64,000 bases of DNA from a virus. Positions 1 to 60,659 of the stretch are shown here, one piece after another. A program made the translations under genes and the position numbers. The notes beneath the pieces were generated by a model. It was not told where the DNA came from and did not search any database. It worked only from the letters and a program-made list of their open reading frames with translations. Position 1 is the first letter of the stretch. Each line of letters opens with the position of its first letter. The DNA lies in the IMG/VR virus record IMGVR_UViG_3300045988_055134, positions 1,364 to 65,363 of that record. One strand, written 5' to 3'.

Positions 1-91
1 TAAGTAGGGGATACTTGAGGAGTAGTTATAGGTGAAGCCCCACCTCCACCTTCCTCATTATAATAAAGACACTTACAGCAAACTTGCTTAA

Positions 92-167
92 AAGCAATTA
101 GCTCAGTTGGTTAGAGCATTAAAGTTTATTTTAATTATGGGTTGGTTCGATTCCAACATTCGCTTCA
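92..167 (+). tRNA. tRNA-like element with canonical D-arm (GCTCAGTTGGTTAGAGC) and T-arm (GGTTCGATTCC) but only 5/7 acceptor pairs and an apparent 6-nt anticodon loop; anticodon undetermined, possibly a pseudo-tRNA
   Basis: Manual cloverleaf folding; D and T arms are clear, anticodon arm TTAAA/GTTTAT/TTTAA. Confidence 0.35.
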
Positions 168-260: not shown

Positions 261-263
261 TAT

Positions 264-340: not shown

Positions 341-341
341 T

Positions 342-418
342 GTGGCTGTAGCTCAGGTGGTTAGAGCACTTGATTGTGGCTCAAGTTGTCGTGGATTCAA
401 ATTCCACCAGTCACCCCA
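342..418 (+). tRNA. tRNA-His (anticodon GUG), discriminator C73, CCA encoded; position -1 is T, not G
   Basis: Acceptor GTGGCTG/CAGTCAC, anticodon stem CTTGA/TCAAG, loop TTGTGGC. Confidence 0.8.
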
Positions 419-483
419 TGAGACCCAAACAGCGATTTTCAATCATATGTTTTTGGTACATACAAGATGAAAGGGGTCTAGAA

Positions 484-636
484 ATGAATAAGAAGACTTA
501 TAAGCAAGCTATGAAGAGGACTGGCGATGAACTACAAGAGTGGCTTCAGTTCAAGCGTCGAGGATCTTCTGTACAAGCTAAGAAGGGCAAGGGATCGTAT
601 TCCCGCAAACAAAAGCATAAAGATAAGGAGTGGTAA
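484..636 (+). CDS. small highly basic hypothetical protein (about 50 aa)
   Basis: ATG with AAAGGGG RBS; K/R-rich; lies between tRNA genes. Confidence 0.3.
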   Translation: MNKKTYKQAMKRTGDELQEWLQFKRRGSSVQAKKGKGSYSRKQKHKDKEW

Positions 637-638
637 TT

Positions 639-953
639 ATGGCTCGTTCATATCGGAAACAACCGGTTTGGAAGGATCATAACCGTGGCATGAAGAAGAT
701 TGCTAATCGTAAAGTGCGGCGGGCGCTTAATAGAAACATTAACCTCGACTTATCGAATTCTGCTTACAAGAAATATACTTGTCAGTGGGATATTTGTGAT
801 TATTGCTCTCTTGTTCCAAGTTCTTTTGAACAGTTCTATCATATCTCTGTTAATAGATGGAAAGAACGTAAAAGCTATTGGTTCTGGAAAGATGAACCAA
901 GTCCTACGAGAGAAGAAGCCTACAGAGATTGGCTTAAATATCGAATGAAATAA
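639..953 (+). CDS. hypothetical basic protein (104 aa)
   Basis: AAGGAG RBS 10 nt upstream of ATG; ORF ends TAA. Confidence 0.45.
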   Translation: MARSYRKQPVWKDHNRGMKKIANRKVRRALNRNINLDLSNSAYKKYTCQWDICDYCSLVPSSFEQFYHISVNRWKERKSYWFWKDEPSPTREEAYRDWLKYRMK

Positions 954-1030
954 GTGCTATTAGCTCAGTTGGACAGAGCATCGGTCTTCTAAACCGAGGG
1001 TCATTGGTTCGAGTCCAATATAGCATACCA
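954..1030 (+). tRNA. tRNA-Arg (anticodon UCU), CCA encoded
   Basis: Acceptor GTGCTAT/ATAGCAT, anticodon stem TCGGT/ACCGA, loop CTTCTAA. Confidence 0.85.
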
Positions 1031-1107
1031 TTAAGACTCTAACAGCAATTCTTTAGCTTATTGAGCATCTAACCGTTAATTAGACTATAATAGAGTCTTG
1101 ATAATAA

Positions 1108-1134
1108 GCAGAGATGGCCGAGCGGTGTTAAGCG
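1108..1134 (+). pseudogene. 5' fragment of a class II (Ser/Leu-like) tRNA (GCAGAGATGGCCGAGCGGT...) with no matching 3' half
   Basis: Resembles the acceptor plus D-arm of tRNA-Ser/Leu; downstream sequence runs into a CDS. Confidence 0.3.
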
Positions 1135-1153
1135 TAGTAACTATTGTTAAGAA

Positions 1154-1591
1154 GTGGTGATTTCTTTGTATGACGTACTGACAATCTCAGATTACATTCT
1201 TAGACGCTGTTCTGACGAAGGGCACACTGTTAGTAATCTGAAGCTACAGAAATTACTGTACTTTGTTCAGGCTGAATTCCTTGTTACAACTGGAAAACCA
1301 TGTTTCCGAGAAAAAATTGTCGCTTGGGATTTTGGACCAGTAATTCCTGAAGTATATCGCAAGTTTTGCATTTTTGGTTCTGCTCATATTCCGGTATCCG
1401 CAGTCGCGAATCCGATATTATCTAAGGGAACCAAAGAACTTATTGATGGTATTGTATTCACTTGCTTACCATTTAGTTCGTCACAGCTCGTTGAAATCAC
1501 TCAGCATCAGACTCCGTGGCTCAACGCTTATATTAAAGGCTATGGCAGCGAGATCACAAATGAGTCAATTCTCAATTTCTTCGCAGAATAA
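1154..1591 (+). CDS. Panacea-domain (DUF4065, SocA-like antitoxin domain) protein
   Basis: Motif LKLQKLLYFVQAEF...WDFGPVIPEVY typical of DUF4065; GTG start. Confidence 0.65.
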   Translation: MVISLYDVLTISDYILRRCSDEGHTVSNLKLQKLLYFVQAEFLVTTGKPCFREKIVAWDFGPVIPEVYRKFCIFGSAHIPVSAVANPILSKGTKELIDGIVFTCLPFSSSQLVEITQHQTPWLNAYIKGYGSEITNESILNFFAE

Positions 1592-1661
1592 TATGCTCAG
1601 TCGGTAGAGCGTTCGATTGATAATCGAAAGGTCGTAAGTTCAAGTCTTATCTGGACTACCA
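1586..1661 (+). tRNA. tRNA-Ile(GAU)-like element: good D, anticodon (TTCGA/TTGATAA/TCGAA) and T arms and encoded CCA, but the 5' acceptor strand does not pair; probably defective
   Basis: Manual folding; 3' acceptor CTGGACT has no complementary 5' strand. Confidence 0.4.
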
Positions 1662-1723
1662 TTTGGGAATATTTCTTTAATTTAATTATCTGCTTCTTTA
1701 TAAATACTGAGGAAGGTGATAAA

Positions 1724-2583
1724 ATGAAGATTTATAATCCAACTAACTATTCTTATATCACTGTTGTAGAAATCCCTAAGACAGAGATTTCAAAGTTTGA
1801 TATGGCATTATGTCAATAGCCACGTTAGACTTTGAAAGCCTATTATGATAGCTGTACTGTTAAGCCTTCTATTATTTCAAATGGTGGTTTCTTTAACATG
1901 AGTAATGGTTCAACTATTTTGAATTATTCTGATGAAGGAAAAATCATTAGCTCTAATTCTTCTTATAAAGAAGGGTTTGGAACTATAAATGGAGAGCTAA
2001 GATACGGTGTAATTGGTCAAGAGAAGTTTGAAGACTTCGTAAGTGGTTATCCAGTTTTGATTAAGGCTGGCGCCGCAGTTCCTATTACTATTGCTTCTGA
2101 GATTAACTATAAAGCTAGAAGAACTGTTTTAGCTTATAATAAAGAGAATATCTTTATTGTGGCTATTGAATCTCCAGGTATGAACTTCTCGCAAATGCAA
2201 TCTTTCTTGCAGACTCTCAAGGTTGATTATGCTATTAACCTTGATGGAGGCGGAAGTACCAAGGTATTACATGATGGTAAGTGTATCACAAAAGCACTTA
2301 CTAATCGTCCTGTTGATAATGTAATGGCTGTTTATTTAAAGCCAAAAGTTATTTATAGAGTATAGCTTGGTGCATTTAGCAAGAAAGCTAATGCAAACGC
2401 ATTTTTGGCTAAGATTAAAGTTCTTCCAGACACAATCAATGCAGGATATAAAAACGCTTATGTCCGCAAGGTTGGTAGTTATTGGAAGGTACAAGTTGGT
2501 GCGTTTTCTGTGAAGACTAACGCAGCAAGAGTAGTTCATGATCTAGCTAACAAGGGATATAATGCTTTTGTTACAACAATTTG
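1724..2583 (+). CDS. phosphodiester-glycosidase (DUF2233/NAGPA-like, NLDGGGST motif) plus C-terminal SPOR domain protein; three in-frame TAG codons (1817, 1826, 2363)
   Basis: GAGGAAGGTGA RBS before ATG 1724; the reading frame is continuous through the TAGs to a TGA at 2581; SPOR motif YRV-TAG-LGAFS. Confidence 0.75.
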
Positions 2584-2658
2584 ATTTTGTATAAATATTA
2601 TGATATAATATTTATACAAGATAAGGAAAGACACATATTACAATATGTGTCTTTATAA

Positions 2659-2730
2659 CGGGGTGTAAGTCAGTGGTAGACGGCGATATTTGGGGTATCG
2701 AGGTCGCAGGTTCGAATCCTGTCACTCCGA
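2659..2730 (+). tRNA. tRNA-Pro (anticodon UGG)
   Basis: Acceptor CGGGGTG/CACTCCG, anticodon stem CGATA/TATCG, loop TTTGGGG, T-arm GCAGG-TTCGAAT-CCTGT; CCA not encoded. Confidence 0.75.
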
Positions 2731-2813
2731 GTCTTTTGTGATATAAACCTCCACGCGGTAAAAGATGGGTAACGCTAATTATATCAAAGTAAAAAGAAAG
2801 GAGTCATTTAGTT

Positions 2814-3437
2814 ATGGCATACATCTATTAGATCACTAATGACATAAATGGTAAAATTTATGTCGGTAAAACTGAATTCTCTATCGAGAAACGCTTTAAG
2901 GAACATTGTCGAGATGCTTTCAAAGAGCGTAACGAAAAGCGTCCATTATATTCTGCTATGCGGAAATATGGAATTGAACATTTCCATATTGAGCTAATTG
3001 AAGAAACGGATGATCCAGAAGAGCGAGAAGTTTATTGGATTGAACAAAAACGTTCTTTCAAGAATGGATATAATGCAACCCTTGGCGGCGATGGAAAGAG
3101 ATATTGTGACTATGATTTAATATATTCTTTATATAAAGAAGGATTAAATATTAAAGAAGTTGCAAAAATTTTGAATTATTCTACGGACACTTGTTCAAAG
3201 GTGTTAAATCAATATGGTATTTCCAAAGAAGAGCGAAGTATTAAAAGTCGTTTAGGTATTATTAAGCCTGTTATACAGATAGATAAAAATACCAATCAAA
3301 TTTTGAATATTTTCCCTTCAATTAAAGCTGCTTATGATCGTTTGGGTAAACAACATTCAGGGCATATAGCTGCTGTATGCAATGGCAAACGAAAAACTGC
3401 TTATGGATACAAATGGAAATACGGTGAAACCTCGTAA
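2814..3437 (+). CDS. GIY-YIG homing endonuclease (Seg/I-TevI-like) with in-frame TAG at codon 6
   Basis: N-terminus MAYIY-TAG-ITNDINGKIYVGKT...R..H matches the GIY-YIG motif; C-terminal NUMOD-like DNA-binding region; AAAGGAG RBS. Confidence 0.8.
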
Positions 3438-3898
3438 CTTGCCAGAGCTTAGATAAGGTTATCCCTTATAGTTACGGCCACTTCCCCATTAAATGGGGTT
3501 ATGTATCACTCCTTTCCTATGTTATGGAAAAGACCCATACAGCAAATTCTTCTATTTACTTGAATACAAGAATGTTTATTGGTAAGTATATTACCTCCAG
3601 ACTATGATATATCTCTTTAAGACGGAAACAAGCGAGAGATATGGAGTCATTAGCTTGAGTTTCTGTGGGTCTTGATTTGAAAAAATAATAAACCTACACG
3701 GTTAAGCATAAATCATAAATCGTGTAGTAAAACGCTATATCAGCAAACTTTTGTGCTACTAATTTGAATAAATATAAAAGATATTTATGGTTTTAAGACC
3801 ACGATCTTAAAACTTAGTTCTTTTGGGTAGTGAACATATGGGGAACCGACAAAAGGACGAAAAGGAATTGGTTATGCCCGTTAGCGTCTTGTAAATAT

Positions 3899-3973
3899 TG
3901 GGGTGTCGCCAAGCGGCAAGGCAACGGACTTTGACTCCGGTATTCGTGAGTTCGAATCTCACCATCCCAGCCA
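3899..3973 (+). tRNA. tRNA-Gln (anticodon UUG), CCA encoded
   Basis: Close to E. coli tRNA-Gln (TGGGGT.TCGCCAAGCGG.AAGGCA); loop CTTTGAC. Confidence 0.8.
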
Positions 3974-3975
3974 TT

Positions 3976-4090
3976 TGGAAGTTAGTGTAAGAAATAACAC
4001 GCGCGTAAGATTTAGCCTAGCAATAGGTTGTAACAGCAGTTTTATCGTATGGGACGCGAGATATGGGTTCAAATCCTGTACTTCCAACCA
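3976..4090 (+). tRNA. tRNA-like gene (acceptor, D-arm, anticodon stem CGCGT/ACGCG, T-arm, CCA) with a 47-nt insertion in the anticodon-loop position that includes a GCCTA-GCAA-TAGGT GNRA hairpin
   Basis: Manual folding; class I spacing is exact except for the anticodon-loop insert; the insert contains CTA. Confidence 0.4.
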
Positions 4091-4112
4091 CATGAAAGAG
4101 AGGAGAATGTAT

Positions 4113-4544
4113 ATGTCACAATATCTTAACTTCTTTGTTCGTCACAATGAGGATTTTATTCCTCTCGCAAACTACTCTCGTAATACTCATGTTTATGATA
4201 TTGCAGAAGCCCCTTATGAAAAGATTAGGCGGTTTAGTCAAGAACAGCTTGAATCAATAGCAAGCAGATTGCGGGAGAGCAAGACTTCTGCTCATAAAGA
4301 GATTGCTCGTCTACAGCAAGAAATCGAGATTGTAAAAGGAATTATCATTACCGTGGATAATTTCGATGAATTGCTTTGCGCTATTCACAATATCACGAAC
4401 ATGATTTCTGAATATCAAGAGGATATTGAAGCTCTCGAGCGAGAAGCAATCGAGATTGAGTTTATGCGGAATATGACCTATGATGATTGCGAAATCTTCG
4501 CAGGCATTGAAATTAGTGATCCAACAATGGATGATATTTGTTAA
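4113..4544 (+). CDS. hypothetical protein (coiled-coil)
   Basis: AGGAGA RBS; ORF ends TAA. Confidence 0.55.
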   Translation: MSQYLNFFVRHNEDFIPLANYSRNTHVYDIAEAPYEKIRRFSQEQLESIASRLRESKTSAHKEIARLQQEIEIVKGIIITVDNFDELLCAIHNITNMISEYQEDIEALEREAIEIEFMRNMTYDDCEIFAGIEISDPTMDDIC

Positions 4545-4557
4545 GAGGAAGAAAGAT

Positions 4558-4743
4558 ATGTATATTTGTCCAACTTGTCATAAGGCTTTCAGTTCAGAGA
4601 GCTACATCAAAAAGCATTTCTTAGATTGTTGGAAGGAGCAACACCCATTCCATCAATCAACTCCAGCACCTCGTTCAGAGGATATTGTAGAAGTTCAAGC
4701 AGATGATGATGTATTGGCTTTCTTTGCGAGGTTAAAAGCATGA
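4558..4743 (+). CDS. small C2H2/zinc-finger-like protein
   Basis: GAGGAAG RBS; CPTCHKAFSS...H motif. Confidence 0.5.
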   Translation: MYICPTCHKAFSSESYIKKHFLDCWKEQHPFHQSTPAPRSEDIVEVQADDDVLAFFARLKA

Positions 4744-5093
4744 CAGAAGATGTTATGATTAAGACCCATCTGATTGTTACAGATGTTCACGAAGAATATT
4801 CAATTAGATGGTGCGGACGGATCATTGATACGAAGCCTTTATTAGTAAACAATAAACCTATTTTTGTAATCATTGGTAGAAACAAGCGTGTTGAGGTCAA
4901 TACTATTGATATGAAGCACGTCGAAGAGTGCGCGAAGCGTGTAACAAATCCACGAGGCCGTGCCGCAATCACAAGCGATCAGGCTTCTATTTACATTAAA
5001 GAAGTAGATGACAAAGAAACTTGTATTGGAGTTATTACTCATCGTCATGTGAAAAGTTATGCTCCAATGTATGATGCAGTAGGTTATGAATAA
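4740..5093 (+). CDS. hypothetical protein
   Basis: ATGA overlap with the upstream gene; 117 aa. Confidence 0.5.
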   Translation: MTEDVMIKTHLIVTDVHEEYSIRWCGRIIDTKPLLVNNKPIFVIIGRNKRVEVNTIDMKHVEECAKRVTNPRGRAAITSDQASIYIKEVDDKETCIGVITHRHVKSYAPMYDAVGYE

Positions 5094-5101
5094 GAAAGTA
5101 T

Positions 5102-5187
5102 GCCGCCATGGTGGAACTGGTAGACACAGGGGACTTAAAATCCCCCGGTGTAGAACCGTGCGGGTTCGAGTCCCGCTGGCGGCACCA
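5102..5187 (+). tRNA. tRNA-Leu (anticodon UAA), class II, CCA encoded
   Basis: Acceptor GCCGCCA/TGGCGGC, anticodon stem GGGGA/TCCCC, loop CTTAAAA, long variable arm. Confidence 0.85.
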
Positions 5188-5191
5188 ATTT

Positions 5192-5265
5192 ACCGGTTTA
5201 GTATAATGGTAGTACAGAGGACTCTGACTCTTCTGACGGTAGTTCGACTCTACCAACCGGTGCCA
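5192..5265 (+). tRNA. tRNA-Gln (anticodon CUG), CCA encoded
   Basis: Acceptor ACCGGTT/AACCGGT, anticodon stem GAGGA/TCTTC, loop CTCTGAC. Confidence 0.8.
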
Positions 5266-5311
5266 TTTTCTCCTTCTTTACGGACTCCTGGCGGCTTTAA
5301 TGCCGTCATAT

Positions 5312-5388
5312 GGTTCTTTAGCTGAGTTGGTTACAGCCTTCCGCTCATAACGGAAAGATCCAGAGTTCGAGCCTCTGAAGAACCACCA
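5312..5388 (+). tRNA. tRNA-Met/Ile2 (anticodon CAU), elongator type, CCA encoded
   Basis: Acceptor GGTTCTT/AAGAACC, anticodon stem TTCCG/CGGAA, loop CTCATAA. Confidence 0.8.
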
Positions 5389-5391
5389 TAC

Positions 5392-5465
5392 GCGGGGTTA
5401 GGCTATAGGTAGACCATCAGCGTTAAAAGGCTGAAAAAGCGGTTCGAATCCGCAACCCCGCACCA
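5392..5465 (+). tRNA. atypical class I tRNA with an apparent 8-nt anticodon loop GTTAAAAG (UAA or UUA anticodon) and a 3-nt variable loop; CCA encoded
   Basis: Acceptor GCGGGGT/ACCCCGC is perfect; T-arm GCGG-TTCGAAT-CCGC; only the stem TCAGC/GCTGA fits. Confidence 0.5.
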
Positions 5466-5489
5466 TATACATTTGAAAGGAAGTAAAGT

Positions 5490-6602
5490 ATGAATATTGT
5501 AAATGCAGGTTCTCGCTATCAGGTGTATGGCGAAGATGTTCAGACATACAAAGAGTTGCCTACTGCAACTTACACAGTCGGTTTCCATCCGCAGATGGGT
5601 TTTTGGCTTACCAAGCATGATGACCTTGTAATCAATGAGGGCACGATTTATGGCGATCATGCTCGCAAGGCAGATAAAATCCTTAAATCGTTTCAGATTA
5701 GCGCAAGAAACTTCGGTGTTATTCTTTCTGGTAAGAAGGGTATCGGTAAGTCTTTGCTCGCTCGAATGATTGCTAACAAATCTATTGAAAATGATATGCC
5801 TGTTATTATTGTTGATGCGGCTGTGCCCGGTATCAGCAATTTTCTTAGCTCTATTCAGCAAGAGGTAACAATCATTTTCGACGAGTTCGAAAAGACTTTC
5901 CACAAGACAGATGATGGTGATCCGCAGATAGAAATGCTTAGTCTATTTGACGGCATTGATAATGGCAAGAAATTATTCGTTATCACCTGTAACGACCCGC
6001 GTGACCTCAATGAGTTTCTTGTTAATAGACCTGGTCGTTTCCATTATCATTTCGAGATTACTTGCCCTGCACCTGAGGAAATTCGTGCTTACATGACTGA
6101 TAAGCTCGGCACTGGCTGGGACGACGAGATTGATAAGATTATTAAGCTGTCTCAGATGTCGAATATCACCTTCGACTGTTTGCGGGCTATTGCTTTTGAT
6201 CTTAAGCAGGGATACCCTCTCGAGGAAACTCTCATGGATCTAAATATCAACTACGAGCGTGATGTCGCTTATGATATTACCATTAGACTTTCTAATGGTT
6301 GGACTAATACCAAGTATAGTTACAGAGTTAACCTGTATTCTGCGGGATGGGTATATTGTGAATTTTACAATAAAGAGTTCTGCTACCACGTTAAATTCGA
6401 TGTGAAGAGTGTCGTTGCTGAGAATGGCGTGCTTTGTGTTGATCCCGATAAGGTCACACTATCGTTGCCGTGGGATGCTTTTGATGAGCTGCCAGACAAC
6501 GATGCAGAGATTGCTAAGAAACAGTGGCTCAATTCCACCTCCATTCTTTCTCTCACACTCACTAAGGTAAACGACTTGATGATTAACAAGTTTGGTGTGT
6601 AA
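5490..6602 (+). CDS. AAA+ ATPase (Walker A GKKGIGKS, sensor NRPGRFH)
   Basis: Motif content; GGAAG RBS. Confidence 0.75.
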   Translation: MNIVNAGSRYQVYGEDVQTYKELPTATYTVGFHPQMGFWLTKHDDLVINEGTIYGDHARKADKILKSFQISARNFGVILSGKKGIGKSLLARMIANKSIENDMPVIIVDAAVPGISNFLSSIQQEVTIIFDEFEKTFHKTDDGDPQIEMLSLFDGIDNGKKLFVITCNDPRDLNEFLVNRPGRFHYHFEITCPAPEEIRAYMTDKLGTGWDDEIDKIIKLSQMSNITFDCLRAIAFDLKQGYPLEETLMDLNINYERDVAYDITIRLSNGWTNTKYSYRVNLYSAGWVYCEFYNKEFCYHVKFDVKSVVAENGVLCVDPDKVTLSLPWDAFDELPDNDAEIAKKQWLNSTSILSLTLTKVNDLMINKFGV

Positions 6603-6612
6603 GTAAATATAA

Positions 6613-6647
6613 ACCCTGTCATTATTATATAATGACAGGGTTTTTTG
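6613..6647 (+). terminator. rho-independent terminator (CCCTGTCATTA...TAATGACAGGG then a T-run)
   Basis: Perfect inverted repeat followed by TTTTTT. Confidence 0.7.
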
Positions 6648-6776
6648 TTGCATATATGTGGGCATTGGACCGCGCTCGGTGCAAACGCAAAGTAGTTTTA
6701 GAATTTTTCGGGCCAAATATGGGAAAATGACTTGCTACAATTTTTATATCTATGTGAGAGGAGGGATTTATAAGAA

Positions 6777-6989
6777 TGGCTGATTTAGTAGTTCTTAAAG
6801 GTTCTTTTGCCAATCTCGATAGCATCCCGATTAAAGAGGGCTAGTTGATTTTCACGACAGATGAGGGTAATCGTCTGATTTTCTTGGATACTGATAACAG
6901 TACTCGAGTATAGATCACTTCTCCCGCGATTGAGGATACTGATACAATCATTTTGGACGCCGGCGGCGCTCCTATAACAATAGGAGGTT
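6777..6989 (+). CDS. small protein with two in-frame TAG codons; its N-terminal motif is shared with the neighbouring fibre-like genes
   Basis: GAGGAGGG RBS; ATG 6777; ends TAA 6987. Confidence 0.5.
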
Positions 6990-6996
6990 AAGGCAT

Positions 6997-7509
6997 ATGG
7001 CTGTTAAAACAATTTAGATTGTCTTAAAGATGCGCCGTGATAATGATTACAATTACGAGAAGGTAAAGGATAGTTTTATTCCCGAAAAGGGCGAAATTTG
7101 TTTAGTAGATACTGCTAAGCAAGGCCTTTGCGTGATTGTTGGCGATGGCGTGTCAACTTATGGAAGTCTTGAGTATGAGAATACTATCTTCCAACGCGCT
7201 TATTTCATTGGTGAAAAGATTTTCAAAGATGTTGATGGCACTCAAGAAATCACTCCTAATGAAAATAAAATTTATATTGATGCCAATAACTCAAATGCTT
7301 TATATTATTATAATGGTGTTGAGTTTGTTGGCATTGGACCGGGTTCGCTTCCCGTAGCGTCTGCGGAAACCGCTGGTATTATGAAACTTTACACTGGTAG
7401 TGGAGAGAATACTGATGGCACCATGACGCAAAAAGCGATTACAGATGTACTGAACACCAAAATTGGCGTTACAGTTAATTTAGAAGATGAAATAGCTATC
7501 TTCAAATAA
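6997..7509 (+). CDS. tail-fibre/structural-like protein with in-frame TAG at codon 7
   Basis: TAGGAGG RBS; ATG 6997 is in frame with ORF 7030-7509. Confidence 0.6.
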
Positions 7510-7532
7510 TCTTATAGGAAGAAATTAATTTT

Positions 7533-8741
7533 ATGGCTATTTTTGATCCTAAGAATGTTCCTGTTATTTCCAAACTAACTATTGGAGATCAGACTTATTA
7601 TCTAAAGGACGCTGAAGTTCGTGAGCTGCTTAAGACTCTTGGTACTGCTGCTCAGAAAGATGTTGCCGCGGGTGTTGGCGCTGATGAGCAGGGTCTTGTA
7701 ACTGGTGCTCAGGTTCAGGCTGCCATTGCTAGCTCTATGCACTTCCGCGGTGTTGTTACTTCTTTTGATGACATTACCGATCCTGCCGCAGGTGATGTAA
7801 TTATCATTGGTGTTAAGGAGTACGTGTATGGCGGTGAGCCTGCTACATGGCATGAGCTTGGCGATGAGAGCATTTATGCTTTAAAGACTGTTACTATTGG
7901 TACTCAGAATCTGTCTGCTAATATTAACCTTGATACCCTTGCTGCGGATATGGGTCTTGGCAAGCTGGCTAAGAAGGATTCCGCTACTGGTACCGTAGCT
8001 GGCCAGACTATTACCGGTCTGAAGGCTAAGGGCAATGCCGCGGGTTCTATTGAGGTTGGTCTTACTCAGACTGCAACTGATGCTACTCTAACCAAGAGTG
8101 ATTATACTCCAGCAGGTACTGTAACCGGTACGACAACTGCTGCTGGTACTGTTAGTATTGCTAAGGATGCTGAAAACGGTGTTCAAATTTCCGGTTCTGT
8201 GTCTGCACCAAACGTAACCGTAACCCCAGCTAAGGATAGTATTAAAAAGGTAACTTCCGTTGGTTCTTTGCCGTCTAAGGCTAAGGATACTTTTGTTACC
8301 AACGGCGATGATACTTTTACTCAAGGTTCTCAGGCTTCTTGGAGTGCTTCTGTTGATGATGCCACTGAGACTTTAAGTTTTAGCTTTACCGCGAATGTAC
8401 TTCCTACTTTTGTGCAGGGCGCAAAGGCTTCTTATACAGAAGGTGCATTTGATGCAGGTACTCTTCCAGAACTTGCTGAAACCGCAACCGATGTTGTAAC
8501 TGGTATTACTAGCGCGACTGCTACGGCTCCAGTATTTACTGGCGATAAATTTGCAGCTACCTTTGCTGGTAATGAAGTCGATGTTAATGCTACCTTCGCA
8601 GGCACTAAGACTCAGGTTGTTACCGGCGTATCTTACGATAAGGCTGGCGTAGACACTGACAAGACCAAGTTCACTGGCGCTGCTGTTGAGCTTGATGTTG
8701 ACGACGTAGTAGTTACCGCTAAGGAAGTTACTGTTAAGTAA
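7533..8741 (+). CDS. Ala/Thr/Gly/Val-rich structural (fibre-like) protein
   Basis: Low-complexity TGT/TAT repeats; high GC; N-terminal motif ..YYLKDAEVREL. Confidence 0.6.
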   Translation: MAIFDPKNVPVISKLTIGDQTYYLKDAEVRELLKTLGTAAQKDVAAGVGADEQGLVTGAQVQAAIASSMHFRGVVTSFDDITDPAAGDVIIIGVKEYVYGGEPATWHELGDESIYALKTVTIGTQNLSANINLDTLAADMGLGKLAKKDSATGTVAGQTITGLKAKGNAAGSIEVGLTQTATDATLTKSDYTPAGTVTGTTTAAGTVSIAKDAENGVQISGSVSAPNVTVTPAKDSIKKVTSVGSLPSKAKDTFVTNGDDTFTQGSQASWSASVDDATETLSFSFTANVLPTFVQGAKASYTEGAFDAGTLPELAETATDVVTGITSATATAPVFTGDKFAATFAGNEVDVNATFAGTKTQVVTGVSYDKAGVDTDKTKFTGAAVELDVDDVVVTAKEVTVK

Positions 8742-8794
8742 TTTAGCACTAGCGAGTTAAATGCTCATTTATGAAAATAAAGGATGGTGAGTAA

Positions 8795-11440: not shown

Positions 11441-11515
11441 GACCTTAACAGCAAAGGAATGGACTGTAAATCCGTCGCTTATGCTACGCAGGTTCGAATC
11501 CTGCCCTCCTCACCA
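11441..11515 (+). tRNA. tRNA-Tyr(GUA)-like element lacking a complementary 5' acceptor strand; it abuts the CCA of the preceding tRNA
   Basis: Anticodon arm ATGGA-CTGTAAA-TCCGT, T-arm GCAGG-TTCGAAT-CCTGC, 3' CCTCCTC-A-CCA. Confidence 0.45.
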
Positions 11516-11628
11516 CTATATGCGGAGGTAGGGAAGTGGTCAAACCCAACGGAACCAAAAACAATAGGTCTAGAATTTAATCTCCCTTGTCCAAGGGAGC
11601 GACTAAAAATCAAAAGGAGATTGATACA

Positions 11629-35061: not shown

Positions 35062-35805
35062 ATGGAAATAAAATTTATTCCCGCTCATTCATCTAATTAT
35101 TATAGTGGGCGTAGTGGTAACTCTATTCTATATATTGTAGTCCACTATACTGCGAATAACGGAGATACAGCAGCCGGTAATGGCAACTATTTCTCTGGAG
35201 CTAATCGCCAGGCTTCCGCGCACTACTTTGTAGATGAAAACAGCATAGTTCAATCTGTGAAGGATTCAGATGGTGCTTGGCATTGCGGCGGCTCTTTAGA
35301 GTCTTCACATCACCCATATCGAAATATCTGCACAAACCGAAATTCTATTGGTGTCGAGATGTGCAGCGATATTGTAAATGGTAAATATGTCATTACCGAA
35401 GCAACAGTAAATCGTACAGTTGAACTAGTAAAGATGTTAATGAAAAAGTATAATATTGCGGCAGACCATGTTATTAGACATTATGACGTAACTGGTAAGC
35501 GTTGCCCAGAACCTTGGGTACGCGATGAAAGCAAGTGGATTGATTTCAAAAAGCGTCTGACCGCGACTGCACCAGCTAAATAGGAGGAAGAAATTGTGAC
35601 ACAGGATCAATTTAATAAAATGATGGATACTTACCTTGCGCAAAGAGATGTAAAGCCTATGACTTGGGAACAAGAGGCAATGAAATGGGCACAGGAGCAA
35701 GGTCTAATTAAAGGTAACGAAAAGGGTCAATTGATGCCAAAAAGCTTCCTGACTCGTGGCGAATTCGTTACTGTATTGAAGCGCTATGCTGAAAAGCAAA
35801 ACTAA
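35062..35805 (+). CDS. endolysin: N-acetylmuramoyl-L-alanine amidase (Amidase_2/PGRP) joined through an in-frame TAG (35581) to a C-terminal SLH-like wall-binding segment
   Basis: YIVVHYTANNG...AHYFVD...HCGG motifs; ORFs 35062-35583 and 35596-35805 are contiguous in frame across the TAG. Confidence 0.7.
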
Positions 35806-42901: not shown

Positions 42902-43813
42902 ATGATATATTTACTATTAGGTTTAATTATTGCTGCTTTGGCAGGATATGCTGTCCACCTCCGCAATGATCGGCTTAAAGTAGTATCAATAAATAGAGAG
43001 CGATAGGCAGAAAATGAGCGCATTGAATCAGATATTGAACGACATAATCTAGATTTAATGTAGCTAAAAGCTAACATAGATTAGTAGAATGAAGTTATCA
43101 ACTCTTTAATTGATACAGCTACTAAAATGCGGGAAAACGCAGAGCAGCAAGCTAAAGAAAGCGCAAAGACAATATATGCGCGAGAAACTGAAAAGTTAGA
43201 AAAAGTCTATCAAGAGTTCGAACAGCAAAAGGAAAAAGAACTCGCGGAAATCGCCTAGTAGGTTCTAGTAGAACAAGACAAACTGGAGCAGTTAGAAGCT
43301 AAATAGTTAGCATATATCCAAGCTCAATAGCGTCAAGAAGAGAGTGCCGCAAATTAGGACTATTATAGACTAACTATTGATGATTTAAGTGTTAATGATA
43401 TAAGTCTGTTGCGAGAATTATAGACTCGTTTCTTCAAGAAAGAAGCTATTGATAAGTTAATTTGGGAAACTTATTATAAGCCATCTTATGATGCACTTAT
43501 GAGTAAGTTATTTCCAAAAGCCTCTAAAGTCTGTGGTATCTATAAGATTACCAATTTAATCACTGGCTAGGCCTATATTGGTCAATCTGTTGATATTAAA
43601 GAACGTTTTAGGCAACATATTAAAACTTCTTTAGCTTACGGTCCAGCAACTAATAAGCTATATCAGGCAATGCAAAAATCCGGACAGCATAATTTCATGT
43701 TCGAAGTTTTGGAAGAAGTGCCTCGAGCTTAGTTGAATGAGCGAGAGACTTATTGGATTGAGTTCTATAAAACAAAAGATTATGGTCTAAATAGTACCAG
43801 AGGAGGCTCCTAA
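42902..43813 (+). CDS. 303-codon ORF carrying about 12 in-frame TAG codons: N-terminal TM helix, Gln/Glu coiled coil, C-terminal GIY-YIG nuclease domain (possible internal start at 43499)
   Basis: Continuous frame from ATG 42902 to TAA 43811 if TAG is sense; GIYKITNLITG-TAG-AYIGQS...YWIEFYK motif. Confidence 0.55.
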
Positions 43814-50688: not shown

Positions 50689-52437
50689 ATGGATTATCAA
50701 TTAATCAAGCCTATTCAAGAAAACTATTCAGCGATTGAATAGGTTCTTACTAATCGAGGTATTAAGTTTGAAGACATCGCTCATTATCTTAATGTAACAG
50801 AGGAAGATAACTTATCTCCACTGCTATTAGACAATATAGAACAAGCCGCTAAGATGCTGTTTAACCAGTTACATAAAGACGGTTTCCATATTCATGTGCA
50901 AGTAGATAGTGATTGCGATGGTTATACTTCAGCAGCCTTACTATTGAATTACATTCATGCAATTATTCCATCTGCTATTGAGCATATCTCTTATAGTTTC
51001 CATAATGGCAAAATGCACGGAATTAATCCAGCTCTTATTCCATCAGAAACAACGCTGGTGATTGCTCCAGACTCGAGTTCAAACGATTATGATATTCATA
51101 AGATGTTGCATAATAAAGGAGTTGAAGTTCTTGTACTGGACCACCACCAAGCAGAAAAGATTTCTGAATATGCGTGTATTGTAAATAATCAGTTATGTGA
51201 TTATCCAACCAAATCATTATCTGGTGTTGGTGTTGTGTATAAGTTATGCCAGTTTATTGATTCTTTACTCCCAGCCAGTGAGCAAAAGGCAAATCAATTC
51301 TTAGATATGGTTGCAGTTGGTCTCGTTGGAGATATGATGGATTTACGAGATTTTGAAACCCATTATCTTGTTCAAACTGGTTTAAGTCAGCTTCAAAATC
51401 CTTTTATCAAGGGTATGGCAGAAAAAAACCATTATCAATTAGGTGACAATCCCACTCCAATAGGCGTAGCGTTCTACATTGTTCCTTTAATCAACTCGAT
51501 TACACGAGTAGGTACGTTAGAAGAAAAGACTTTATTATTCGAATCTATGTTGAATTGGAAAGCCTTTGACCTGGTGCCCTCCACTAAACGAGGATGCGCT
51601 GGCCAGCAAGAGACAAGATTAGATCAAAGTTTGCGGACTTGCACTAATGTCAAAAACCGCCAGACTAGAAACCAAGATGCTGCGGTTGAATAGGTTAAAA
51701 GTATTATCAAAGAAAATAATCTTTTAGATCATAAAATCTTACTTGTTAAGTTAGAACATCCGTCTTTTGATAGAGGTATTACTGGTCTAATTGCTAACAA
51801 GCTAATGGCAGAATATCAGCGTCCTGTTGCTCTACTTGTTGAAGTAGACGAAGATGGTAAAAAGGCTTGGAGTGGTTCTGCACGAGGATATGAGAAATCT
51901 AAGCTCAATGATTTTAGAGGTTTCTGCCGAGATAGTGGTTTGATTTATCTCGCGGAAGGACATCCTAATGCGTTTGGCTTTGGTATCTTAGATGAAAATT
52001 TTGATGCTTTTGTTGAGTACGCAGATACAACTCTTAAAGATATTGAGTTCTCACCTAGTTACAAGGTAGACTTTATTCATTCAGCCAATGACGTTAGACC
52101 TAAAGAAATCTTAGAACTAGGTAATATGAAGAATCTTTGGGGACAGAATGTAGATGAGCCGCTTATCGCGGTAGAACATTTATCTATCACTAAAGATATG
52201 ATTACCTTAATGTCTAGAGATCGAAATCCCACTTTAAAGATACAGTTATCCAATGGAATAACCTGTATCAAGTTTAAGTCTAGCGAAGAAGAACTAGAAA
52301 GTTTGTTTAGCGAGAATGGTTGTGTTACGATTAATCTCGTTGGCAAGGCGGAGGTAAACAAGTATTTCAATAGCGTGACACCACAGCTAATTATTCAGAA
52401 CTATGAAATCATAAATCGTCAAGAGTATTTCTTTTAA
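50689..52437 (+). CDS. RecJ-like DHH/DHHA1 phosphoesterase-exonuclease with two in-frame TAG codons (50740, 51691)
   Basis: AAGGAGG RBS; ORFs 50854-51693 and 51805-52437 are joined in frame across the TAGs; DHH motif VLDHHQ. Confidence 0.7.
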
Positions 52438-58430: not shown

Positions 58431-60659
58431 GTGTTTCTATTGCTACAAGTAAAGAAAAGAAATGGTATCCTTGTACCATTTGATAAGCAAAGAATTGTAA
58501 ACGCTATCAACAAGGCTTTTATCGAGGTTGATGGCATTCTGTATGAAGAAGATACGGCGAAAGATATTGCCGATGAAATTAAATATAGCGTAAAGACTGC
58601 GGATGATATTATCTCAGTTGAAGAAATTCAAGATATGATTGAGAATTTCTTAATGCGCTCTGAAAGAAAAGATGTTGCCAAGGCTTATATCAGATATAGA
58701 TATAAGAGAGAAATGGTGCGCTCTAGTAATGATGACTTTATTCAAGCGTTCTCTGAAAAAGTTAGCGGCTCTTCTATTGAACGACAAAACGCTAATGTTG
58801 ATGAGCTATCGTTTGGAGGTCGTGTTGGCGCAAGTTCAGACCTTTAGATGAAGAAATATGCGCTTGATTATTGCGTATCTGATATGGCTCGCAATAATCA
58901 CCGCAATAATGAAATTTATATCCATGATTTATCCGCTTATGCAGTTGGTATGCACAACTGTCTATCTATTCCTTTTGATCACTTGCTTGCCGATGGGTTT
59001 AACACTAGACAAACTGATGTAAGACCCGCAGGTTCAGTGAATACTGCATTTCAGTTGGTAGCAGTGATTTTCCAACTTGAATCTCTCCAGCAGTTTGGTG
59101 GCGTAAGTGCAACACACCTCGACTGGACGATGGTTCCTTATGTAAGAAAAAGTTTTAGAAAGTACTATATTGAAGGCTTAAAATATATTGAGAATATCTC
59201 CGATAAAGAGCTTTTTGACCATATTCCAGATAATGCTGGAATTGAAGATGATGAATATATGATTTATGATAAAGCATATCAATATGCTCTTGATATGACT
59301 ATTAAAGAAGTACATCAAGCTGTAGAAGGTATGTATCATAATCTTAATACTCTTCAGTCTCGCTCTGGTAATCAACTACCATTCACATCTATTAACTATG
59401 GTACTTGCACTTTGCCCGAAGGTAGAATGGTAATTAAAGCATTACTTGATGTCTCTATTGAGGGACTTGGTAAACTGCATAAAACTTCTATCTTCCCATG
59501 CGGTATCTTCCAATGTATGAAGGGCGTCAATCAAAAGCCAGATGATCCGAACTATGATTTGTTTAGACTGGCTCTAAGATCCACTGCAACTAGACTCTAT
59601 CCTAACTATGCTAACGTTGATTGGTCTGGCAATGCAGGATATGACCCGAATGATCCCAAGACCTATTTTAGCACGATGGGTTGCCGCACCGCGAATGGTT
59701 GGGACGTCAATGGCATGGGTCAAACAAAAGATGGTAGAGGTAATATCTGCCCTGTAACCATCATCATGCCTACTCTTGCTATGGAAGCAAAAGAAGCAGC
59801 AGATGCCGCATATCCTGACGCAAACGCCATTGATTGTTTTATGTCTCTACTTGACCAGAAAATTCATGAAGCTAAGGATATGCTGCTAGAACGATTTGAT
59901 TATATTTGCTCTCAGCCTGCTGAATCCGCGAAGTTCATGTATGAAAATGGCGTAATGGCTGGCTATGATGGCAAGACAACCCGTAGTGCATTAAAGCATG
60001 GTACTCTTGCTGTTGGTCAATTAGGCCTTGCAGAAACGCTACAAATTCTTATTGGTCAGGATCATACTACTTCGCAGGGTATGGAACTAGCTAAGAAGAT
60101 TGAGCAGCTCTTCCAAGATAGATGTGCAGCTTTCAAACAACAGTATCAGTTAAACTTTGGCGTTTATTATACACCTGCGGAGAACCTCTGTTACACTGCT
60201 ATGACGAAGTTTAAGGACAAGTATGGAGAAATTCCAAACGTAAGTGATAGAGATTATTTCACTAACTCTATTCATGTTCCGGTATGGAAGAAGATGTCAC
60301 CTTTTAAGAAGATTGATATTGAAAGCCAGCTGACCGGTTATTCTTCTGCTGGCTGCATTACTTACGTTGAACTTGATAGTGGCGTTAAGAATAACATTGA
60401 CGCTCTGGAAACTTTGGTACTTTATGCTATGGAACATGATATTCCGTATTTCGCAATTAACGTTCCTAACGACACTTGTCTTGAGTGTGGTTACATGGAC
60501 GAATTTAATGATCACTGCCCAGTTTGCGGAAGTCACCATATTCAACAGCTTCGACGTGTTACAGGCTATCTAACCGGTAATTATACAACTGCCTTTAATG
60601 CAGGTAAAGTTGCCGAAGCCAATGATAGAGTAAAACATTCAGGTCGATTGGAGGAATAA
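58431..60659 (+). CDS. nrdD: anaerobic ribonucleoside-triphosphate reductase with N-terminal ATP-cone; in-frame TAG at 58845 at the cone/catalytic junction
   Basis: ATP-cone VKKRNGILVPFD; glycyl-radical RVTGYL; C-terminal CxxC..CPVC. Confidence 0.8.

What the first reader, a model, noticed from the sequence alone, without database searches (positions are those of the whole stretch)
3899..5470. No CUA suppressor tRNA found; two Gln tRNAs present
Recoding normally needs a phage tRNA with a CUA anticodon. None of the 18 tRNA-like loci in the window shows an unambiguous CUA anticodon. The phage does carry both tRNA-Gln(UUG) and tRNA-Gln(CUG). The CUG isoacceptor is one G36 to A change away from an amber suppressor, and CUG tRNA-Gln is the classic near-cognate reader of UAG. 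The true suppressor may lie outside the window or be one of the aberrant tRNA-like genes.
Basis: inference. Interest (0 to 1): 0.6.

Follow-up and report, generated by a model that had tools for sequence, protein, structure and literature searches.

The report
Amber suppressor tRNA sits just upstream
The "missing" UAG-reading tRNA of this stop-codon-recoded phage lies about 1.5 kb before the window starts, so the gap is a window-edge effect; the tRNA also carries an extra hairpin that copies the glutamine anticodon loop, which may explain how it is loaded with glutamine.

Summary
The window has tRNA-Gln(UUG) at 3899-3973 and tRNA-Gln(CUG) at 5192-5265, about 18 tRNA-like loci, and no CUA anticodon. 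The gap is a window-edge effect. A metagenome contig identical to window 1-10953 carries a 91-nt tRNA(CUA) 1,477-1,567 nt upstream of window base 1, and every close relative has it too. TAG encodes glutamine: in an 81-sequence NrdD alignment, TAG falls in 10 otherwise invariant Q columns, and the window's own NrdD TAG is Q in its nearest relatives. Near-cognate reading by tRNA-Gln(CUG) is therefore unnecessary, and it is implausible for an ORF with 12 in-frame TAGs. The aberrant tRNA-like genes are remnants or insertion-bearing tRNA-like RNAs, not suppressors. The suppressor itself is unusual. It has an unpaired U1·C/U72, a G73, and an extra arm whose covarying stem closes a 7-nt loop, YU(C/U)UGAR, which is the tRNA-Gln anticodon loop. 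This arm occurs in 34 of 43 long-armed phage tRNA(CUA) and in 0 of 153 other long-armed tRNAs. I found no published description. It may supply the Gln anticodon determinant that CUA lacks; that is inferred, not shown.

The parts
1..92 (+). Left edge of the window, which cuts through the phage's tRNA array. THE SUPPRESSOR LIES BEYOND THIS EDGE and cannot be given in window coordinates. It is a 91-nt amber suppressor tRNA(CUA) at L003 7796-7886, which is 1,477-1,567 nt upstream of window base 1 (window position = L003 position minus 9362). It has anticodon arm GCGGU-CUCUAAA-ACCGU, extra arm UUCC-UUCUGCA-GGAG, a U1.C72 mismatch, G73 and an encoded CCA.
   Evidence: Called by ARAGORN and by Rfam tRNA at 53.6 bits. 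L003 is identical to window 1-10953. The MFE fold is a five-arm cloverleaf. A promoter-like TTGAAA-17-TGnTATAAT site lies about 95 nt upstream of the tRNA. Fourteen further tRNAs lie upstream of the window in L003.
3899..3973 (+). tRNA-Gln(UUG), canonical: U1-A72, G2-C71, G3-C70, G73.
3976..4090 (+). tRNA-like RNA with a full cloverleaf body and a Gln-like acceptor (U1-A72, G2-C71, G3-C70). Its anticodon loop is replaced by 47 nt that hold a hairpin, AGCCUA-GCAA-UAGGUU. It is not a CUA suppressor.
   Evidence: ARAGORN with introns allowed. It is conserved in L001-L007 and L114, with 7 pairs showing compensatory changes, including pairs in the inner hairpin.
5102..5187 (+). tRNA-Leu(UAA).
5192..5265 (+). 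tRNA-Gln(CUG): A1-U72, G73, D loop AAUGGUA. It is the positional and sequence counterpart of the class-I tRNA(CUA) found in distant relatives.
5312..5388 (+). tRNA-Met(CAU).
5392..5465 (+). tRNA with an 8-nt anticodon loop, GUUAAAAG (ARAGORN reads the anticodon as 'UAAA'). It is accessory: present in 4 of 7 strains. It is not CUA.
   Evidence: Rfam 37.9 bits. It is cleanly absent in L004-L006, and the acceptor pair covaries U7-A66 to C7-G66.
93..166 (+). Degenerate tRNA-like gene with a 6-nt anticodon loop (GUUUAU), a weak acceptor stem and no CCA.
   Evidence: Rfam 33.9 bits; strain alignment.
1108..1658 (+). Remnants of a tRNA-Ser(AGA)/tRNA-Ile(GAU) pair. The 5' fragment is at 1108-1147, and Ile(GAU) lacking its 5' acceptor strand is at 1585-1658. 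The pair is split by the inserted ORF 1148-1591.
   Evidence: Rfam 48 bits for 1585-1658. The pair is intact in L002 and L004-L006. Sequence.
11442..11550 (+). tRNA-Tyr(GUA)-like gene in permuted order. The 3' two-thirds, ending in CCA, is at 11442-11510. The matching 5' third follows at 11517-11550.
   Evidence: Rfam partial hit; sequence; conserved in L004 and L005.
1724..2584 (+). NAGPA + SPOR protein with 3 in-frame TAGs (1817, 1826, 2363). The TAG at 2363 sits at the Q of the SPOR motif, YRV-Q-LGAFS.
   Evidence: called as 286 aa with both Pfam domains. There is a TAG/CAG polymorphism at codon 32.
35062..35805 (+). Endolysin. An Amidase_2 domain and an SLH wall-binding domain are separated by the TAG at 35581.
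42902..43813 (+). Coiled-coil + GIY-YIG protein with 12 in-frame TAGs.
50689..52437 (+). RecJ-like exonuclease (DHH, DHHA1, RecJ_OB) with TAGs at 50740 and 51691.
58446..60659 (+). Anaerobic ribonucleotide reductase NrdD with a TAG at 58845. The start codon is uncertain.

Best explanation
The phage reads UAG as glutamine with its own dedicated amber suppressor tRNA. That tRNA is part of the same tRNA array the window cuts through, and it lies 1,477-1,567 nt upstream of window base 1. It is transcribed from its own extended -10 promoter. Host enzymes load it with glutamine, since no synthetase was seen in the phage DNA I examined. It then competes with release factor 1 at the roughly 25-45 in-frame UAG codons of the window's genes, which include homing endonucleases, lysis enzymes, NrdD, RecJ and UDG. 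The two ordinary tRNA-Gln genes in the window serve CAA and CAG and are not the UAG decoder.

Shown: the gene exists, it has a canonical CUA loop, it is conserved in all relatives, and TAG means Gln.

Inferred: the tRNA is expressed, it is charged with Gln by host GlnRS or by ND-GluRS plus GatCAB, and it is the only suppressor in the genome.
For: - Contig L003 (ERZ27261476 k99_36653, 144,503 bp) matches window 1-10953 with 0 mismatches. It carries tRNA(CUA) at 7796-7886, which scores 53.6 bits against Rfam tRNA.
- The loop is C32 U33 C34 U35 A36 A37 A38 on a 5-bp stem.
- The same 91-nt gene is present in all seven close relatives (L001-L007) and in relatives with 76% protein identity (L100, L102-L105, L109, L112, L114).
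- TAG means Gln. In the 81-sequence NrdD alignment, 25 columns hold TAG. Ten of them are otherwise invariant or dominant Q, against a background Q frequency of 3.9%.
- The window's own NrdD TAG is Q in L014 (99% identity), L015 and L016-L027.
- TAG/CAG polymorphisms occur in UDG and NAGPA.
- No ORF ends in TAG, and Pfam domains continue across TAG codons.
- The acceptor end is Gln-like: U1 unpaired, G73, G2-C71, G10. According to the identity review PMC9976931, amber tRNA-Ser, tRNA-fMet and tRNA-Trp become GlnRS substrates, and the 1-72 and 3-70 pairs matter for Gln identity.
- A promoter-like site matching 11 of 12 positions, with TG, lies upstream.
- Similar 136-kb TAG-to-Gln phages with tRNA-SUP-CTA genes have been described (PMC10607447).
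Against: - About 53 kb of the roughly 144.5-kb genome could not be read, so a second suppressor cannot be excluded. phAss-1 has three.
- There is no expression, charging or proteomic evidence for this phage.
- The long extra arm and G73 could in principle attract SerRS.
- C3-G70 differs from the E. coli Gln identity pair G3-C70.
- The host is unknown, so the glutamine-charging route is unknown too. Only indirect hints point to Bacillota: DNA pol III alpha is 39% identical to Enterococcus and SPbeta phages, and the endolysin has an SLH domain.
Confidence: 0.85

Rival explanations
1. UAG is read by near-cognate pairing of the phage tRNA-Gln(CUG) at 5192-5265, with no dedicated suppressor.
For: The phage does carry an extra tRNA-Gln(CUG). 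Gln tRNAs are the classic near-cognate readers of UAG (established knowledge). No CUA tRNA exists inside the window.
Against: A cognate tRNA(CUA) sits 1.5 kb upstream in the same genome. Near-cognate readthrough runs at a few per cent at best, so it cannot produce a protein with 12 in-frame TAGs (42902-43813, with its GIY-YIG domain confirmed). TAG also occupies invariant catalytic-core Q columns of NrdD in relatives.
Confidence: 0.03
2. One of the aberrant tRNA-like genes inside the window (93-166, 3976-4090 or 5392-5465) is the real UAG decoder.
For: All three are conserved in several strains. 3976-4090 has a Gln-like acceptor stem, shows covariation in every stem, and contains the triplet CUA.
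Against: In 3976-4090 the CUA lies inside a covarying stem, not in a loop, and no linear splice of the insert yields a CUA loop (sequence). 93-166 has a 6-nt loop, GUUUAU, a weak acceptor and no CCA. 5392-5465 has the loop GUUAAAAG and is missing from 3 of 7 strains that keep their TAG codons.
Confidence: 0.03
3. The 91-nt tRNA(CUA) is a class II (Ser, Leu or Tyr type) suppressor that inserts serine, leucine or tyrosine rather than glutamine.
For: It has a long extra arm. Among long-armed tRNAs of the phage, it is most similar to tRNA-Tyr(GUA) and tRNA-Leu(CAA), at 0.51-0.57 identity, and its anticodon arm resembles that of tRNA-Tyr. Its G73 matches SerRS preference. True Ser-like tRNA(CUA) genes do exist in other phages in the survey.
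Against: TAG aligns with invariant Q, and with CAG or Q in the nearest relatives. A73, which LeuRS and TyrRS require, is absent. The extra arm is 2-4 bp with a 7-nt loop and a 5-6-nt tail, unlike the Ser, Leu and Tyr arms in the same genomes. Once its extra arm is trimmed, its closest non-self relatives include the class-I Gln-type suppressors, at 0.65-0.66 identity.
Confidence: 0.05
4. Another suppressor tRNA in the unread ~53 kb of the genome does most of the UAG decoding, and the 91-nt gene plays a minor role.
For: The related phAss-1 phages carry 2-3 tRNA-SUP-CTA genes. Only about 91 of 144.5 kb was examined.
Against: All tRNAs seen lie in one array, from -5.5 kb to +11.5 kb. There are none in the 10 kb after the window, and none in the roughly 12 kb before the array in a 99%-identical relative. 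The 91-nt gene is strictly conserved at the same array position across lineages.
Confidence: 0.1

Closest known systems
Phage-encoded tRNA-Sup(CUA) of 'code 15' (TAG to Gln) gut phages: Lak, crAss-like, Garnet, Agate and phAss-1 groups (bioRxiv 10.1101/2021.08.26.457843; PMC9523058; PMC10607447).
   Same: A large gut-metagenome phage with a tRNA array. TAG is read as Gln, concentrated in lysis genes, homing endonucleases and some DNA-metabolism genes. It carries its own CUA tRNA and shows no phage synthetase. Genome size and tRNA count resemble phAss-1 (136 kb, 36 tRNAs).
   Different: There is no nucleotide-level relative in the annotated phage collection. The papers I read describe these suppressors only by anticodon and tRNAscan isotype. 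None mentions the extra arm with a Gln anticodon-loop sequence or the unpaired 1:72 position.
E. coli supE (glnV amber suppressor: tRNA-Gln CUG to CUA).
   Same: The CUA anticodon sits on a Gln-accepting body. The class-I tRNA(CUA) of distant relatives (L008-L013, L108) looks like exactly this kind of derivative of the phage tRNA-Gln(CUG): same D loop, 6 of 7 acceptor positions shared, and G73.
   Different: The window phage's suppressor has an added 16-nt arm and a mismatched 1:72 pair in place of U1-A72. supE has neither.
Identity-switched amber suppressors charged by GlnRS: amber tRNA-Ser with altered 1-72 and 3-70 pairs, and amber tRNA-fMet and tRNA-Trp (summarised in PMC9976931). From my own recollection, supF tRNA-Tyr mutants at positions 1, 72 and 73 also insert Gln.
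   Same: A long-armed tRNA with a CUA anticodon, a disrupted first base pair and G73 is the type of molecule that E. coli GlnRS accepts.
   Different: Those are laboratory mutants. This is a natural, conserved design, and the host enzyme is unknown.
Class II tRNAs (Leu, Ser, Tyr, Sec) with long variable arms, and engineered V-arm hairpin tRNAs (PMC7590224).
   Same: The extra helix emerges between the anticodon arm and the T arm. Its overall size (19-24 nt) is in the range ribosomes tolerate.
   Different: The loop is 7 nt and carries anticodon-loop sequence conservation (Y32 U33 Y34 U35 G36 A37 R38). The stem is only 2-4 bp, and a 5-6-nt tail resembles a class-I variable loop. None of 153 Leu, Ser, Tyr and other long-armed tRNAs in the same loci has this motif.

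Membership tests
tRNA (Rfam RF00005) | The cloverleaf scores above the family's gathering threshold of 29 bits. | tested here: met
   L003 7796-7883 scores 53.6 bits. The ARAGORN cloverleaf and the MFE fold agree.
Amber suppressor tRNA, tRNA-Sup(CUA) | A 7-nt anticodon loop with U33, C34-U35-A36 and a purine at 37, on a 5-bp stem. | tested here: met
   The loop is CUCUAAA on the stem GCGGU/ACCGU.
Amber suppressor tRNA, tRNA-Sup(CUA) | The tRNA is expressed, aminoacylated, and inserts an amino acid at UAG. | not testable with these tools
   The only evidence is indirect: in-frame TAGs in conserved genes of the same genome, and a promoter-like site upstream.
Genetic code 15 (TAG = Gln) phage | In-frame TAG aligns with Gln in homologues, and TAG is not used as a terminator. 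| tested here: met
   TAG falls in 10 otherwise invariant or dominant Q columns of NrdD. The window's own TAG is Q in its nearest relatives. TAG/CAG polymorphisms occur. None of 78 ORFs ends in TAG.
tRNA-Gln identity set (E. coli GlnRS) | A weak or open 1:72 pair (U1-A72 in the native tRNA). | tested here: met
   U1.C72 or U1.U72 in all variants of this lineage. Across arm-B suppressors there is never a G1-C72.
tRNA-Gln identity set (E. coli GlnRS) | G73 as the discriminator base. | tested here: met
   G73 in this lineage, and in 16 of 23 arm-B suppressors.
tRNA-Gln identity set (E. coli GlnRS) | G2-C71 and G3-C70. | tested here: not met
   G2-C71 is present, but position 3:70 is C3-G70.
tRNA-Gln identity set (E. 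coli GlnRS) | U35 and G36 in the anticodon. | tested here: inconclusive
   The decoding arm has U35 but A36. U35 and G36 are both present, and invariant, in the loop of the extra arm. Whether any enzyme reads that loop is unknown.
Class II tRNA-Leu / tRNA-Tyr | A73 discriminator together with a long variable arm. | tested here: not met
   The discriminator is G73.
Class II tRNA-Ser | A long, well-paired variable stem (about 5-7 bp) with a short loop, together with G73. | tested here: not met
   The arm is 2-4 bp with a 7-nt loop. Ser tRNAs of the same genome have 6-7-bp arms. TAG aligns with Q, not S.
Near-cognate (programmed) UAG readthrough | No cognate tRNA for UAG is available in the system. 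| tested here: not met
   A cognate tRNA(CUA) is encoded in the same genome.
Theta (HDV-like) ribozyme-associated phage tRNA-Sup (PMC10879173) | A minimal HDV-like ribozyme with its cleavage site at the tRNA 3' end. | tested here: inconclusive
   An Rfam E-value scan of L003 3500-10000 gave no HDV-like hit after the tRNA. However, the theta motif may not be in Rfam, and I ran no descriptor search. The tRNA encodes its own CCA.

The most novel reading that the evidence does not exclude
A large family of phage amber suppressors, including this phage's, is built as a 'two-anticodon-arm' tRNA. Arm A (CUCUAAA) decodes UAG on the ribosome. Arm B, in the variable-arm position, is a conserved copy of the tRNA-Gln anticodon loop (YU-C/UUG-AR) on a covarying stem. 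Together with an unpaired 1:72 and G73, arm B provides the U35/G36 determinant that the Gln-charging machinery requires and that a CUA anticodon lacks. That machinery would be GlnRS, or ND-GluRS with GatCAB. Arm B might be read either in an alternative fold, in which it takes the anticodon-arm position, or through a non-canonical contact. This would be a natural way to uncouple what a tRNA is charged as from what it reads.
Probability: 0.35. Interest if true: 0.85.

Novelty: new variant of a known kind. Interest (0 to 1): 0.6.

Why it matters
For the finding as written, the answer is reassuringly ordinary. Annotation of this phage should use translation table 15.

What goes beyond that is the architecture of the suppressor. 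A recognised open question for recoded phages is how host synthetases come to load stop-codon-reading tRNAs with glutamine. Borges et al. say so explicitly. The conserved, covarying extra arm with a Gln anticodon-loop sequence is specific to CUA tRNAs. Combined with systematically weakened 1:72 pairs and G73, it turns that question into a simple experiment. It also suggests a design principle for orthogonal or identity-preserving suppressor tRNAs in genetic-code engineering.

Tried and rejected
- **Relaxed ARAGORN thresholds (70-80%, introns up to 3 kb).** These gave hundreds of noise calls and no credible CUA tRNA in the window.
- **Group I intron or other Rfam family for the interrupted tRNA genes and for the region after the GIY-YIG gene.** Nothing reached significance.
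- **Splicing the 40-nt insert of 3976-4090 at every possible position.** No 7-nt loop with CUA results; ARAGORN's 'His(AUG)' parse is arbitrary.
- **Megablast of the first 12 kb against annotated phages.** Only tRNA-Thr matched, so no close named relative was found.
- **PDB alignment of NrdD to read the residue at the TAG site.** The position is variable (T/V), so it was uninformative. I replaced it with the 81-sequence alignment.
- **Pairwise tRNA identities to decide the ancestry of the 91-nt suppressor.** The signal is weak and mixed: Gln-type suppressors at 0.65, Asn at 0.70, Tyr and Leu at 0.5-0.57. Ancestry is left open.
- **DNA pattern search for more copies of the 3976-4090 insert.** It returned only two chance matches in coding sequence.
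- **First look-up of the last ORF.** It used a wrong start codon and returned only a 1.7-kb contig. I repeated it with the ATG start.
- **First submission of this report.** The suppressor is now described under the window's left edge, part 1-92.
Full report
**1. The observation**

ARAGORN finds 14 tRNA genes, all on the + strand, between window positions 93 and 11437. They include tRNA-Gln(UUG) at 3899-3973 and tRNA-Gln(CUG) at 5192-5265. Rfam confirms both, at 57.1 and 60.0 bits. Rfam also adds a tRNA hit at 1585-1658 and a partial hit at 11442-11504.

With introns allowed, ARAGORN adds a tRNA with a 40-nt insertion at 3976-4090. A 5' tRNA fragment is visible at 1108-1147. None has a CUA anticodon. 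Relaxed thresholds produce only noise.

**2. TAG is recoded**

All 78 + strand ORFs of at least 60 codons end in TAA (62) or TGA (16), and none ends in TAG. TAG occurs in frame in about 20 genes and makes up at most 7% of Gln-type codons.

Pfam domains continue across TAG codons in four cases:
- NAGPA + SPOR, called as one 286-aa protein in six independent assemblies.
- Amidase_2 + SLH in the endolysin.
- DHH + DHHA1 + RecJ_OB in the RecJ-like exonuclease.
- A GIY-YIG domain in an ORF with 12 TAGs.

**3. TAG means glutamine**

I aligned the window's NrdD with 80 phage homologues of 62-99% identity. Twenty-five columns contain TAG in at least one sequence. Ten of those columns are otherwise invariant or dominant Q, with 52-80 of the other sequences showing Q. 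The background Q frequency is 3.9%.

The window's own NrdD TAG (nt 58845) is Q in the 99%-identical L014, in L015, and in the roughly 90%-identical L016-L027. Those last sequences place a TAG of their own in an invariant Q column.

Among six strain-level contigs, the only changes at TAG codons are TAG/CAG, in UDG codon 152 and NAGPA codon 32. The TAG at 2363 occupies the Q of the SPOR motif YRV-Q-LGAFS; that consensus comes from my own knowledge.

**4. Where the suppressor is**

An exact-sequence look-up of the 104-aa protein at 639-953 returned six contigs of 139-148 kb. One of them, L003 (ERZ27261476 k99_36653, 144,503 bp), is identical to window 1-10953 at every base. A second look-up shows the same record also holds the window's far end. 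The window is therefore a rotated piece of this genome.

The tRNA array continues upstream of the window. In total the array holds 28 ARAGORN tRNAs, running from -5.5 kb to +11.5 kb.

At L003 7796-7886, which is 1,477-1,567 nt before window base 1, lies a 91-nt tRNA with the anticodon loop CUCUAAA. ARAGORN labels it 'Pyl' only because of the anticodon. Rfam scores it 53.6 bits. A TTGAAA-17-TGnTATAAT promoter-like site matching 11 of 12 positions lies about 95 nt upstream.

The gene is present in all seven close relatives and in relatives at 76% protein identity. No tRNA occurs in the 10 kb after the window. None occurs in the roughly 12 kb before the array in a 99%-identical relative. About 53 kb of the genome remains unread.

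**5.

A cognate decoder exists, so near-cognate reading by tRNA-Gln(CUG) is unnecessary. It would also be hopeless for a protein with 12 UAG codons.

The aberrant tRNA-like genes are not suppressors:
- 1108-1147 and 1585-1658 are what is left of a Ser(AGA)/Ile(GAU) pair. The pair is intact in other strains. In the window it is split by the ORF at 1148-1591.
- 11442-11550 is a Tyr(GUA)-like gene in permuted order.
- 93-166 has a 6-nt loop, a poor acceptor stem and no CCA.
- 5392-5465 has an 8-nt loop, GUUAAAAG. It is cleanly absent from three strains, yet it shows a compensatory acceptor change where it is present.
- 3976-4090 is a real, selected RNA. All four cloverleaf stems and an inner hairpin with a GNRA-type loop show compensatory changes across seven variants. 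Its CUA triplet, however, is inside a stem. What this RNA does is unexplained.

Distant relatives (L008-L013, L108) have a 72-75-nt class-I tRNA(CUA) in the neighbourhood where the window has tRNA-Gln(CUG). That tRNA shares its D loop (AAUGGUA), 6 of 7 acceptor positions and G73 with the window's tRNA-Gln(CUG). Its nearest non-suppressor relatives are Gln(CUG) tRNAs.

**6. The suppressor's unusual build**

- **Position 1 is unpaired.** It is U1.C72 or U1.U72 depending on strain, so the mismatch itself is what is conserved. The discriminator is G73.
- **Between the anticodon arm and the T arm there are 20 nt that fold into an extra hairpin**.

To see whether this build is general, I collected phage tRNAs that share the 15-nt anticodon arm (at least 119 IMG/VR contigs). 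Among the 86 distinct tRNA(CUA) sequences, about 40% are 84-95 nt long. In 31 of the 40 long-armed ones, counting the four variants of the window's own lineage added by hand, the extra arm has three features:
- A stem of 2-5 bp, most often 3.
- A 7-nt loop reading CUCUGAA (17), CUUUGAA (4), UUCUGCA (3, this phage's lineage), UUCUGAG (2), UUCUGAA, CUCUGAC, CCCUGAA, UUUUGAU or UUUUGAG.
- A tail of 5-6 nt before the T arm.

That loop is the anticodon loop of tRNA-Gln: Y32, U33, C or U at 34, U35 and G36 invariant, A37. CUCUGAC is letter for letter the loop of the window's own tRNA-Gln(CUG).

The stem covaries, with forms UCC/GGA, GGC/GCC, GCC/GGC, AGC/GCU, UGC/GCA, AUC/GAU, CUC/GAG and CCA/UGG. 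On alignment A3 the covariation score is 0.562, against 0.151 for shuffles (0 of 500 reach it) and at most 0.19 for slid registers. The second pair from the loop is CG 11, GC 7, UA 3, and is never unpaired.

Across every tRNA predicted in all loci fetched, the motif occurs in 34 of 43 long-armed tRNA(CUA). It occurs in 0 of 153 other long-armed tRNAs, which are mostly Leu, Ser and Tyr. It also occurs with other arm-A stem sequences.

Arm-B suppressors never have G1-C72. They have U-A (9), U.U (7), A-U (3), A.C (1) or C-G (3), and G73 in 16 of 23. Several short Gln-type suppressors likewise have U1.C72 or U1.U72 with G73.

In one genome for each of 185,579 prokaryotic species, the combined pattern hits only two true tRNAs. 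Both are on phage-like tRNA-array contigs.

**7. Interpretation**

The secure part is that this phage decodes UAG with a dedicated, conserved tRNA(CUA) and that the codon means Gln.

How the tRNA gets its glutamine is inferred. The open 1:72 pair and G73 are what E. coli genetics says favours GlnRS. The identity review (PMC9976931) records that amber tRNA-Ser becomes a Gln acceptor after changes at the 1-72 and 3-70 pairs. It also records that amber tRNA-fMet and tRNA-Trp are glutaminylated, and that GluRS2 and the amidotransferase read the first base pair.

The extra arm's Gln anticodon-loop copy suggests that the charging machinery, which depends strongly on U35 and G36, is offered those bases in a second arm.

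Four points count against that idea:
- Class I synthetases bind with the variable region facing solvent (established knowledge), so an alternative fold or a new contact would be needed.
- The arm-B stem is short.
- Related phages manage with class-I suppressors that lack arm B.
- The host is unknown, although the SLH endolysin and the polymerase relatives hint at Bacillota.

A neutral origin by tandem duplication of the anticodon arm is plausible as history. It does not explain the conservation and covariation.

**8. Literature**

TAG-to-Gln recoding with phage suppressor tRNAs is well known. Borges et al. state that the charging mechanism is open and that only about 40% of TAG-recoded genomes have a detectable suppressor. 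Theta ribozymes flank many phage suppressor tRNAs; I saw no Rfam hit for one here.

Five full-text searches and four papers read turned up no description of the anticodon-loop-like extra arm or of the 1:72 mismatch. The library lacks most subscription journals, so prior description cannot be excluded.

**9. Verdict**

The finding as written is explained, and by itself it is ordinary: a window-edge effect in a code-15 phage. The suppressor it led to is a new variant of a known kind, with a testable and potentially important twist.

Noticed in passing
window 3976-4090; also L114 20075-20197, L008 10755-10948, L111 18057-18227: tRNA genes whose anticodon loop carries a 40-124-nt insertion recur in this phage group. 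The window's copy has a Gln-like acceptor, and all its stems plus an inner GNRA-loop hairpin covary. L008's copy is a tRNA-Gln(UUG/CUG)-like gene and the only Gln tRNA in that 20-kb locus. No group I intron signal was found. Their function or splicing is unknown. The phage encodes an RNA ligase (window 20189-21454).
   Followed up: partly
window 11442-11550: A tRNA-Tyr(GUA)-like gene lies in circularly permuted order. The anticodon arm, T arm and CCA come first, and the matching acceptor-5' strand and D arm follow 6 nt later. It is conserved in two other strains and absent in two.
   Followed up: partly
window 5392-5465: A well-formed tRNA has an 8-nt anticodon loop, GUUAAAAG, which makes it a possible quadruplet or frameshift-type reader. 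It is an accessory gene, present in 4 of 7 strains, with a compensatory change in the acceptor stem.
   Followed up: partly
window 1108-1658: A tRNA-Ser(AGA)/tRNA-Ile(GAU) pair has been destroyed by insertion of a 147-aa ORF (1148-1591). The pair is intact in other strains. GIY-YIG homing endonuclease genes come and go throughout the array.
   Followed up: partly
window 67, 421, 1034, 3531, 11440 (+ strand); L003 7722; L008 10441: The motif AGAC-N5-CAGCRA occurs 6 times on the + strand of the window, against 0.17 expected. Five of the six sit in intergenic leaders of the tRNA array. A 50-nt promoter-like repeat (TTGTATAAATATTATGATATAATATTTATACAAGATAAGGAAAGACACATA) precedes both the suppressor tRNA and tRNA-Pro (window 2587-2637).
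   Followed up: partly
L003 9058-9115 (about 250-300 nt upstream of window base 1): A sub-threshold Rfam hit to the type-P1 twister ribozyme (31.3 bits, E = 9e-4, gathering score 67) lies 37 nt upstream of tRNA-Ser(GCU).
   Followed up: no
window 42902-43813: A coiled-coil + GIY-YIG protein has 12 in-frame TAGs, two of them as adjacent TAG-TAG pairs. This is by far the densest recoding in the window. Homing endonucleases and lysis genes carry most of the TAGs, in line with the published idea that recoding delays their expression.
   Followed up: partly
L100 17655-18000, L111 19026-19364, L114 17196-17540: Related phages carry a tmRNA gene (tag peptide DN(N/D/S)YF(D/E)(S/N)H(M/L)AA) inside the tRNA array. 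The window's phage has none (ARAGORN -m found nothing).
   Followed up: no
L008 3581-3653 and homologues in L009-L013: Distant relatives encode a tRNA with anticodon AAA and the loop CCAAAAG, which lacks U33. They carry it alongside a normal tRNA-Phe(GAA).
   Followed up: no
window 35062-35805: The endolysin's SLH wall-binding domain is reached only by reading through the TAG at 35581, so a truncated amidase would be made without the suppressor. The SLH domain also hints at a host with an S-layer or secondary cell-wall polymer, which would fit Bacillota.
   Followed up: no
L096 18907-20139: One strain carries a reverse transcriptase gene (RVT_1) next to a Big_3 protein, possibly a diversity-generating retroelement. 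It is absent from the window's strain at that position.
   Followed up: no
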